Assembly (NCBI GenBank): GCA_009914755.4
Contig: CP068257.2
Span: forward strand, 37,440,001 to 37,504,000
Source of the DNA: the human T2T-CHM13v2.0 reference genome, Homo sapiens
Reading direction: 5' to 3'
Length of the DNA: 64,000 nt
The notes under the pieces are model-generated. The model saw only the letters and a list, made by a program, of their open reading frames with translations. It made no database searches and was not told the origin of the DNA. The position numbers were made by a program, and so were the translations under genes. Below, in pieces: positions 2,045 through 19,214 of this stretch (positions are counted from its first letter, which is position 1; the number at the start of each line of letters is the position of its first letter).

Positions 2045-2845
<801 letters not shown>

Positions 2846-3415: not shown

Positions 3416-3761
<346 letters not shown>

Positions 3762-17450: not shown

Positions 17451-17595
17451 ACTTGAATTCTAACAGTTCCCATGACTTTTGGGGTTTTTTTTTTGCCATC
17501 ATTCTCACATGCCATCCCACCTTGGTCCCTTAGTATGCGTCAGTGATCTGGGGGTGACCACGTATAGTGGCAGCATCTTAAAAATGCATTCTATA

Positions 17596-17821
17596 GGTTG
17601 CCAGATTTAACAAATACAAATAGAGGATGCCTAGTTCAAGTTGAATTTCAGATAAACAACAGATAATTTTTAGTATAAGTATTTAGTATACTATTTGTAA
17701 GTGTTTAGTATAAGTATTTACTATAAGTAATGTCCTTCAGACATACTTATACTAAAAAGTTTTCTGTTGTTTATCTGAAATTCATGTTGAAACTGGATGT
17801 CCCGTATTTTATCTGGCAACC
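17596..17821. mobile_element. Palindromic MITE-like non-autonomous DNA transposon (~226 bp) with ~85-bp terminal inverted repeats flanked by TA/TA, suggesting the Tc1/mariner superfamily
   Basis: The left arm 'ggttgccagatttaacaaatacaaatagaggatgcctagttcaagttgaatttcagataaacaacagataatttttagtataagtat' and the reverse complement of the right arm 'atacttatactaaaaagttttctgttgtttatctgaaattcatgttgaaactggatgtcccgtattttatctggcaacc' are ~75-80% identical. The termini 'ggttgccagat' and 'atctggcaacc' are perfect inverted repeats. The flanking dinucleotides are 'ta' at 17594-17595 and 17822-17823. Confidence 0.6.
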
Positions 17822-19214
17822 TAAATAATAAGCATCTTTGAAATACTCTAAACTCCCTGGAAAAGACATGTGTTTGGTGCCACGAGGCGGGCTGGGAGAA
17901 TTTCCATGAGGCTGGGCCAAAACACAGGGTTCATTGCTTGGCATCAGCTCACTTCTGCTTCCACAATGAGAAGCAGAAACTTAATTCCTCCAAGGAACAA
18001 TTAATTGGAGTAGAAAGCTTGATTCTTGCATTTCCCACGTAGGTCACAAATTTCTGTTGTTGCAATGTACCTAATACCTATGTTGTGGTTCAAAATGTAG
18101 CATCATCTTAATGCATGCCCATAACTGAATTGTTCCGCCTAAAATAAGTGTAATCACCCTAACCCTAAACTATTCATAACAGACAGGTGAGCTTCAGGGG
18201 TGCATGACCCACACAGCCACACAGGGCCTTGCGCTCAGGACCCCACACTTGATTCAAAACTCTGCAGTCACTGTATTAAAATTCTCAGTAATTTTTGAGC
18301 AAGGGGTTCTGCATTTTTATTTTGCACTGGGCCTCACAAACGATGTCACCGGTCCGAGGACAGGTGTACCTAATAACACGTCAGCTGCTGCACAAAATGC
18401 TTCCATCACTGAAAAGTGACAGATGCCTCAGCCTATTCTTTGCTGAACTCGCTTCTAAGCAACTAGAGCCCTTTGGCCTGGCACCTCTCCTCTGCCACGT
18501 GCTGCTGTCTCCAGCATTGCTTTAATTTAATTAGTGTCTGGCTGGTTGAAAAGACTGTTTTTGATTCTGTGTGTGCTGTATGAGCTGTTGTCTGGATTCT
18601 CTTCCAACTTGGCCTTGGGAACACCCAGTGTCGAATCTGCTGTCTTTGGCTCTGTAAGACTGTGGTTTTTAAAGGACAATTGTTGCTCATAGCAACTTGA
18701 AGGCTGGATGGAGACTTGCCTGAAGCCCCATGAACCAGCAGATTTGGGGCTATTTAATTTCCCACCAGTAGCTGATTCCAAAGGTGTGCTTGTGTGGAAC
18801 CAAATCTCTCTGCCATCAGCCACATTTATTTTCTAATCTTCATTTTTTTTCCCTCCCTTCTCATGTACAGGGTTCAGCTTTCTTTCTCCTCCTCTAAGGT
18901 TTTCCTTCCGAATTCCCCTTATCCCTTTCCTTGTCCTCTCCCTGTTTGTAACCCATCCACTATTCCACATGCCCCTAGCTGACCCATTTTTTGCTCAGGT
19001 CTTTCTCCAGGGGAGAAGAACCAAAAGATGAGATTCAAATTGATTTTGCTGCTCATTAATGTCCCTTTCAAAGTTCTTGACGAGGGTGATGAAGCCAATG
19101 CCTAGGGGAAGAAATTTCAAACATTGGCTTTCCAGTTCCATTCCAGTTCCCCACCAATGTCTTCAGTGATGCCACCATGCAAAGAGCATCAGGAAAGGAG
19201 CACTGAATTCTGGC

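What the first reader, a model, noticed from the sequence alone, without database searches (positions are those of the whole stretch)
17594..17823. 226-bp palindromic MITE-like element with perfect 11-bp termini and a TA/TA flank (Tc1/mariner signature)
The terminal inverted repeats 'ggttgccagat...atctggcaacc' and the ~85-bp arms are ~75-80% identical, around a ~55-bp AT-rich spacer. The TA dinucleotide on both sides is the hallmark target duplication of Tc1/mariner transposition. The element sits just 3' of an MLT1 LTR. I cannot match it confidently to a named human family from memory.
Basis: partly seen in the sequence, partly recalled or inferred. Interest (0 to 1): 0.5.

Follow-up and report, generated by a model that had tools for sequence, protein, structure and literature searches.

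The report
Ordinary MER53 transposon fossil
The 226-bp palindrome is real, but it is an ordinary, decayed copy of MER53, a small non-autonomous Tc1/mariner-type DNA transposon present in thousands of copies in placental-mammal genomes and already known as the source of the miR-1302 microRNA family.

Summary
Window 17596-17821 is a 226-bp palindrome with perfect 11-bp inverted termini (GGTTGCCAGAT / ATCTGGCAACC) and TA on both sides. It folds far better than shuffles do (z about -11.5).

- Rfam matches the centre to mir-1302, a family the literature derives entirely from MER53.
- A profile built only from published MER53-derived sequences hits this element and nothing else in the 64 kb (E = 2.4e-11).
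- A public-collection scan with an internal 20-mer returned 38 contigs carrying homologous elements, from at least about 22 independent loci.
- Those copies share the same termini, and TA follows the terminus in 13 of 18 independent arms (background 5%).
- The window copy is 84% identical to the consensus of the independent copies, which is typical for the family.

Private features of this copy are trivial: a 13-nt unit expanded to about 5 copies in the centre (this explains 226 bp against the ~190-bp consensus), a shortened apex, and termini 1 nt shorter than usual.

It is not a miR-1302 gene. It scores below Rfam's gathering threshold and the seed is mutated.

The element is already known, and interest is low.

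The parts
17594..17595 (.). Left flanking TA (putative target-site duplication)
   Evidence: Read directly. TA follows the terminus in 13 of 18 independent family arms against a 5.2% background.
17596..17606 (+). Left terminal inverted repeat tip, GGTTGCCAGAT
   Evidence: The family form is G(G/A)GTTGCCAGAT, one base longer.
17596..17682 (+). Left arm, 'long' form of the MER53 arm (contains TTTAACAAATACAAATA)
   Evidence: nhmmer with the profile of published MER53-derived sequences covers 17625-17682 at E = 1.4e-7.
17666..17729 (+). Copy-specific expansion of a 13-nt unit (TTTAGTATAAGTA, about 5 copies). It accounts for most of the excess length over the ~190-bp consensus.
   Evidence: TRF finds period 13, 5.0 copies, at 17669-17729. 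A 22-nt direct repeat is spaced 35 nt apart. The alignment to 13 independent copies shows 40 window-only bases.
17702..17758 (.). Degenerate apex of the palindrome, homologous to the mir-1302 precursor hairpin
   Evidence: Rfam RF00951 scores 42.7 bits on the - strand and 40.8 bits on the + strand, E about 6e-6 and 1.6e-5, below the gathering score of 62. The best match to mature miR-1302 is 18 of 21, with the seed UGGGACA changed to UCAGACA.
17743..17821 (+). Right arm, 'short' form of the MER53 arm
   Evidence: nhmmer covers 17703-17804 at E = 2.4e-11. The distance from the anchor to the end matches short arms of independent copies.
17811..17821 (+). Right terminal inverted repeat tip, ATCTGGCAACC
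   Evidence: The family form is ATCTGGCAAC(C/T)C.
17822..17823 (.). Right flanking TA (putative target-site duplication)

Best explanation
Window 17596-17821 is a fossil copy of MER53, a short palindromic non-autonomous DNA transposon (MITE) of placental mammals that Repbase assigns to the Mariner/Tc1 superfamily. Inferred mechanism: the element encodes nothing. A transposase supplied in trans by an autonomous Tc1/mariner-type element, now extinct or unidentified, recognised the two inverted termini, cut the element out and pasted it into a TA dinucleotide, which was duplicated on integration. This happened in an early eutherian ancestor. The copy has since decayed neutrally to about 16% substitution divergence from the family consensus. 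It has also gained a slippage-type expansion of a 13-nt unit in the centre, lost about 10 nt at the apex and lost 1 nt at each tip, so it can no longer move. Because it is a palindrome, any transcript through it would fold into a long hairpin. That property let a few other MER53 copies become miR-1302 genes, but this copy lacks the miR-1302 seed and nothing indicates that it is one. Shown here: the palindrome, homology to MER53-derived sequences, the shared termini and the family-wide TA flank. Taken from the literature: the family name, copy number, superfamily and TA duplication. Inferred: the cut-and-paste history, the age and the present inertness.
For: The palindrome and termini are. Rfam matches the centre to mir-1302 on both strands (E = 5.7e-6 and 1.6e-5). 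All mir-1302 genes derive from MER53, described as a 193-bp consensus with TIRs, TA duplications and a palindromic structure, found in eutherians (PMC2996404). An nhmmer profile built only from 17 published MER53-derived precursors of several species hits this element alone in 64 kb, at E = 2.4e-11 and 1.4e-7 on the + strand with mirror hits on the - strand. A scan of public metagenome contigs with an internal 20-mer gave 40 contigs. 38 of them carry the homologous element, six carry Alu heads and so are primate host DNA, and removing duplicates leaves 25 non-window arms, of which those from L009 and L014 are chance hits of the 20-mer. Independent copies end in ...CTGGCAAC(C/T)C followed by TA in 13 of 18 arms, against a 5.2% background (binomial P about 1e-13). 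The window copy is 83.8% identical to the consensus of 13 independent copies (K2P 0.18), within the family range of 74-89%. It shares the long-arm/short-arm asymmetry seen in L026 and L032. MER53 is annotated 5,839 times in hg18 and listed under Mariner/Tc1 in Repbase. The window is a primate genome, with 4 Alu heads.
Against: The actual Repbase/Dfam MER53 consensus was not available, so the name rests on proxies: published MER53-derived precursors, the Rfam mir-1302 model and independent genomic copies. No empty orthologous or paralogous site was examined, so whether the TA is a duplication or simply the outermost bases of the element was not shown here. Both tips of this copy are 1 nt shorter than the usual family form (GGTTGCC against G(G/A)GTTGCC), a symmetric difference I cannot explain beyond two 1-nt losses or a variant source copy. 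No autonomous partner or transposase was identified, so the superfamily assignment rests on the TA flank and on Repbase's classification.
Confidence: 0.95

Rival explanations
1. A local inverted duplication created on the spot, for example by fold-back or template switching during replication, and not a mobile element.
For: Only one copy exists in the 64-kb window. A 12-of-14 direct repeat flanks the element at 17572-17585 and 17831-17844, reached by only about 0.5% of controls. That could hint at local rearrangement.
Against: Homologous palindromes with the same termini and the same TA flank lie at about 22 or more unrelated loci with unrelated flanks. The literature counts 5,839 copies in hg18. 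The flanking direct repeat does not abut the element, and its significance was judged after the fact.
Confidence: 0.01
2. A functional microRNA gene of the miR-1302 family (or a derived relative with a new seed), processed from the hairpin formed by this MER53 copy.
For: Rfam mir-1302 matches on both strands at E about 1e-5. The centre folds into a hairpin (68-nt segment: z = -3.1 on the + strand and -4.3 on the - strand; 147-nt segment: z about -11). Other MER53 copies are accepted miR-1302 genes.
Against: The scores of 42.7 and 40.8 bits are well below the gathering score of 62. The best match to mature miR-1302 is 18 of 21, with two changes inside the seed (UGGGACA to UCAGACA), so the copy fails the exact-seed criterion that Yuan et al. 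used to nominate paralogs. The 13-nt expansion gives a branched apex, the kind of structure their classifier rejected. Only about 44 of 5,839 MER53 copies were even candidates. No expression data are available.
Confidence: 0.03
3. A non-autonomous element of another cut-and-paste superfamily (hAT or piggyBac) rather than Tc1/mariner.
For: No transposase or autonomous partner was identified here, so the superfamily rests on the flank and on Repbase's label. From memory only, some RepeatMasker library versions label MER53 differently from Repbase. I could not check this.
Against: There is no 8-bp direct repeat at the borders: ATTCTATA against TAAATAAT matches at 2 of 8 positions, whether or not the TA is counted as part of the element. 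The flank is not TTAA. TA flanks 13 of 18 independent arms. Repbase lists MER53 under Mariner/Tc1, and Yuan et al. report TA target-site duplications and a relation to mariner.
Confidence: 0.04

Closest known systems
MER53 (Repbase/RepeatMasker human and eutherian interspersed repeat; non-autonomous Mariner/Tc1 DNA transposon)
   Same: It has the same palindromic architecture, the same terminal inverted repeats (…TTGCCAGAT…), the same TA flanks and the same internal sequence, including the highly conserved TGTTGTTTATCTGAAATTCA block and the long-arm/short-arm asymmetry. Divergence from the consensus (16%) is typical of the family.
   Different: It is 226 bp instead of ~189-193 bp. The excess comes from a copy-specific expansion of a 13-nt unit (17666-17729), partly offset by a shortened apex. 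Each tip is 1 nt shorter than the usual family form. These are ordinary decay features of one copy.
mir-1302 microRNA precursor family (Rfam RF00951; hsa-mir-1302-1 to -11)
   Same: It derives from the same transposon family. The centre, 17702-17758, aligns to the whole 52-position Rfam model on both strands.
   Different: It scores below the gathering threshold (42.7 against 62 bits). The mature sequence matches 18 of 21 with a mutated seed, and the apex is branched. It is a relative of the miRNA genes by descent and not a member of the gene family.
MADE1 / Hsmar1-derived MITEs (source of the miR-548 family)
   Same: Both are short palindromic mariner-type MITEs with TA flanks whose hairpins have spawned miRNA genes. 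This is a general parallel noted in PMC5424272.
   Different: The sequences are unrelated. I recall MADE1 as about 80 bp and primate-specific, whereas MER53 is about 190 bp and eutherian-wide. The MADE1 details rest on my own knowledge and were not tested here.

Membership tests
MER53 | Sequence homology to the family over the full length | tested here: met
   A profile of 17 published MER53-derived precursors hits only this element in the window (E = 2.4e-11 and 1.4e-7). The element aligns end to end with 13 independent copies and is 83.8% identical to their consensus. The Repbase/Dfam consensus itself was not available.
MER53 | Terminal inverted repeats shared with other copies | tested here: met
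   The window termini are GGTTGCCAGAT / ATCTGGCAACC. Independent arms end in CTGGCAAC(C/T)C. The window form is 1 nt shorter at both ends.
MER53 | TA dinucleotide flanking both ends (reported TA target-site duplication) | tested here: met
   TA lies at 17594-17595 and 17822-17823. TA follows the terminus in 13 of 18 independent arms against a 5.2% background, P about 1e-13. That it is a duplication comes from PMC2996404 and was not shown here.
MER53 | Palindromic structure forming a long hairpin, with a consensus length of about 189-193 bp | tested here: met
   Fold z = -11.5 as DNA and -11.8 as RNA. The length is 226 bp, with 40 window-only bases from the 13-nt unit expansion; about 186 bp remain once these are removed.
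MER53 | Many dispersed copies in eutherian genomes | tested here: met
   38 of 40 contigs found through an internal 20-mer carry the element, at about 22 or more independent loci, and six carry Alu. 5,839 copies are annotated in hg18.
Tc1/mariner superfamily | Target-site duplication of exactly TA, shown by an empty site | not testable with these tools
   No mammalian genome alignments or empty sites are available. Only the conserved TA flank was shown. 8-bp (hAT) or TTAA (piggyBac) duplications are absent.
Tc1/mariner superfamily | Mobilised by a DD(E/D) Tc1/mariner transposase whose autonomous element shares the termini | not tested
   The element is non-coding and no autonomous partner was sought or found. 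The assignment comes from Repbase as reviewed in PMC5753468.
mir-1302 miRNA gene family (RF00951) | Score at or above Rfam's gathering threshold | tested here: not met
   42.7 and 40.8 bits against a gathering score of 62. No gathering-level hit appears in the whole-window scan.
mir-1302 miRNA gene family (RF00951) | Intact mature miR-1302 sequence and seed (UUGGGACAUACUUAUGCUAAA) | tested here: not met
   The best match is TTCAGACATACTTATACTAAA, 18 of 21, with two seed positions changed. The exact-seed criterion is from PMC2996404.

The most novel reading that the evidence does not exclude
This decayed MER53 copy, if transcribed, could be processed into a small RNA with a new seed (UCAGACA in place of the miR-1302 seed UGGGACA). 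The 13-nt unit expansion might also provide an alternative hairpin, making this an unannotated, lineage-specific offshoot of the miR-1302 family. Nothing here excludes it, because no expression or conservation data could be consulted. Nothing supports it beyond the hairpin that every MER53 copy forms.
Probability: 0.03. Interest if true: 0.2.

Novelty: already known. Interest (0 to 1): 0.06.

Why it matters
It matters little. The element is one of several thousand MER53 fossils in a primate genome. MER53 as a family is of some interest as the documented source of the placental-specific miR-1302 family, but this copy shows no sign of having been recruited.

Tried and rejected
(1) Local inverted duplication. 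I rejected this because independent TIR-bounded, TA-flanked homologs exist at many loci.

(2) A long target duplication suggested by the flanking 14-nt direct repeat at 17572-17585 and 17831-17844. It is 12 of 14 identical and reached by about 0.5% of controls, but it does not abut the element, so I rejected it as a duplication and left it as a side note.

(3) hAT-type 8-bp or piggyBac TTAA duplications. Neither is present.

(4) A bona fide mir-1302 gene. It scores below Rfam's gathering threshold and the seed is mutated.

(5) The Rfam MIR8742 match (19.3 bits against a gathering score of 130, E = 0.29). I dismissed this as a generic AT-rich long hairpin.

(6) Looking for a second copy in the window. 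There is none.

No repeat library or mammalian genome alignment is available, and I ran no further search on them because those collections are not mammalian.

(8) Two of the 40 contigs (L009, L014) were chance matches of the 20-mer and were excluded.

Full report
**Observation.**
TA lies at 17594-17595, GGTTGCCAGAT at 17596-17606, ATCTGGCAACC at 17811-17821 and TA at 17822-17823. The element between the two TAs is 226 bp. The exact 11-mer occurs only at these two places in the 64-kb window. The repeat finder adds inner inverted repeats of 37 nt (89% complementary) and 16 nt (100%). As a single strand the element folds into one long hairpin. As DNA the energy is -50.5 kcal/mol, against -15.0 +/- 3.1 for dinucleotide shuffles (z = -11.5, none of 200 shuffles as good). 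As RNA, z = -11.8. The left arm (87 nt) and the reverse complement of the right arm (79 nt) are identical in 78.7% of alignment columns, or 90.9% if gap columns are ignored.

**What it is.**
- *Rfam.* A scan of the region matched the centre (17702-17758) to the mir-1302 precursor family on both strands. E-values were 5.7e-6 and 1.6e-5, with scores of 42.7 and 40.8 bits, below the gathering score of 62.
- *Literature.* All mir-1302 genes derive from the DNA transposon MER53. It is described as a 193-bp consensus with terminal inverted repeats, TA target-site duplications and a palindromic stem-loop, found in eutherians and related to mariner (PMC2996404). A second paper lists the consensus as a 189-bp palindrome (PMC5424272). 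Repbase files it under Mariner/Tc1 (PMC5753468). hg18 carries 5,839 annotated copies.

**Direct tests of homology.**
- *Published sequences.* I took 17 published MER53-derived precursor sequences from several loci and species (supplement 3 of PMC2996404). I built an nhmmer profile from them alone and searched the whole window. The only hits are on this element: E = 2.4e-11 for 17703-17804 and 1.4e-7 for 17625-17682. There are mirror hits on the minus strand, as expected for a palindrome.
- *Full-length copies.* The published precursors do not reach the tips of the element. I therefore scanned the public metagenome-contig collection with an internal 20-mer (TGTTGTTTATCTGAAATTCA) that says nothing about the termini. 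Of the 40 contigs returned, 38 carry a homologous element by the same profile. Six contain Alu heads, so they are primate host DNA.
- *Independent loci.* About a dozen contigs are one locus resampled. Removing duplicates leaves 25 non-window arms, of which those from L009 and L014 are chance hits.
- *Termini and flanks.* Reading outward from the anchor, independent arms end in ...CTGGCAAC(C/T)C. The next two bases are TA in 13 of 18 arms, against a TA frequency of 5.2% in the same contigs (binomial P about 1e-13).
- *Arm asymmetry.* The arms come in a long form (…TATTTTTATTTGCTAAATCTGGCAAC…) and a short form (…TATTTTATCTGGCAAC…). L026 and L032 carry one of each, exactly like the window copy.
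- *Divergence.* Aligned to 13 independent full-length copies, the window element is 83.8% identical to their majority consensus (K2P 0.18). The other copies range from 74% to 89%.

The element is an ordinary MER53 copy.

**Private features of this copy.**
The extra length (226 bp against about 190 bp) comes from 40 window-only bases in the centre. These are a slippage-type expansion of the 13-nt unit TTTAGTATAAGTA to about five copies. TRF reports period 13 and 5.0 copies at 17669-17729. There is also a 22-nt direct repeat spaced 35 nt apart, and the unit matches are. The apex of the family hairpin (…GTCCCAAATATTGCATGGGAC…) is shortened here to GTCCTTCAGAC. Both tips are one base shorter than the usual family form. 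I can attribute this symmetric difference only to two small losses or to a variant source copy.

**Mechanism.**
The following is inferred from the anatomy and from established knowledge of cut-and-paste transposons. The element encodes nothing. It was mobilised in trans by a transposase that recognised its inverted termini, and it integrated at a TA that was duplicated. It has since decayed. The divergence of about 0.18 and the eutherian distribution reported in the literature both point to an insertion many tens of millions of years old. Alus show that the window comes from a primate genome.

I did not show the duplication itself, since no empty site was available, and I did not identify an autonomous partner. 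The superfamily label therefore rests on the TA flank and on Repbase. hAT-type 8-bp duplications and a piggyBac TTAA are absent.

**Is it a miRNA gene?**
Probably not.
- The Rfam score is below the gathering threshold.
- The best match to mature miR-1302 is 18 of 21, with the seed UGGGACA changed to UCAGACA. This fails the exact-seed criterion used to nominate paralogs.
- The expansion gives a branched apex.
- Only about 44 of 5,839 copies were even candidates in the published screen.
- No expression data could be consulted, so a small residual probability remains.

**Verdict.**
The element is already known, and interest is low.

Noticed in passing
window 17572-17585 and 17831-17844: A 14-nt direct repeat (AGCATCTTAAAAAT / AGCATCTTTGAAAT, 12 of 14) brackets the MER53 copy at about 10 nt from each end. 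About 0.5% of shuffles, and of real 40-mer pairs at the same spacing, reach this level. It does not abut the element, so it is not a target duplication. It may be chance, or an internal repeat of the older sequence that MER53 landed in.
   Followed up: partly
loci L003-L034 (arms listed): The base after the flanking TA is a pyrimidine in 14 of 18 independent MER53 arms (C 8, T 6, A 3, G 1). Read on both ends, this would mean an R-TA-Y target preference.
   Followed up: no
window 17596-17598 and 17819-17821, compared with the loci: Both tips of the window copy are 1 nt shorter than the common family form (GGTTGCC against G(G/A)GTTGCC), and the loss is symmetric.
   Followed up: partly
L026, L032, L039 and others: MER53 copies show a long-arm/short-arm difference (an indel of about 10 nt, TTATTTGCTAA, near the tip). 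Some copies are long/short and some long/long, which suggests subfamilies or an asymmetric master copy.
   Followed up: partly
window 2502-2618 (+): An Rfam Metazoa_SRP hit lies just above the gathering score (71.2 against 70 bits). It coincides with an Alu head at 2501, so it is an Alu (7SL-derived) and not an SRP RNA gene. Further Alu heads lie at 3471, 24716 and 35567.
   Followed up: partly
L017, L022, L023, L024, L027, L028, L030, L033, L036, L038: These metagenome contigs are one MER53 locus with the same flanks (near-identical across contigs) but a poly-T tract of about 9 to 33 T inside the left arm. It is either a polymorphic or an assembly-unstable homopolymer.
   Followed up: no
L009 6845-6864 and L014 2830-2849: These are exact matches to the 20-mer in long contigs that carry no MER53 element (profile E about 1e-3 only). 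They are chance hits and were excluded.
   Followed up: yes
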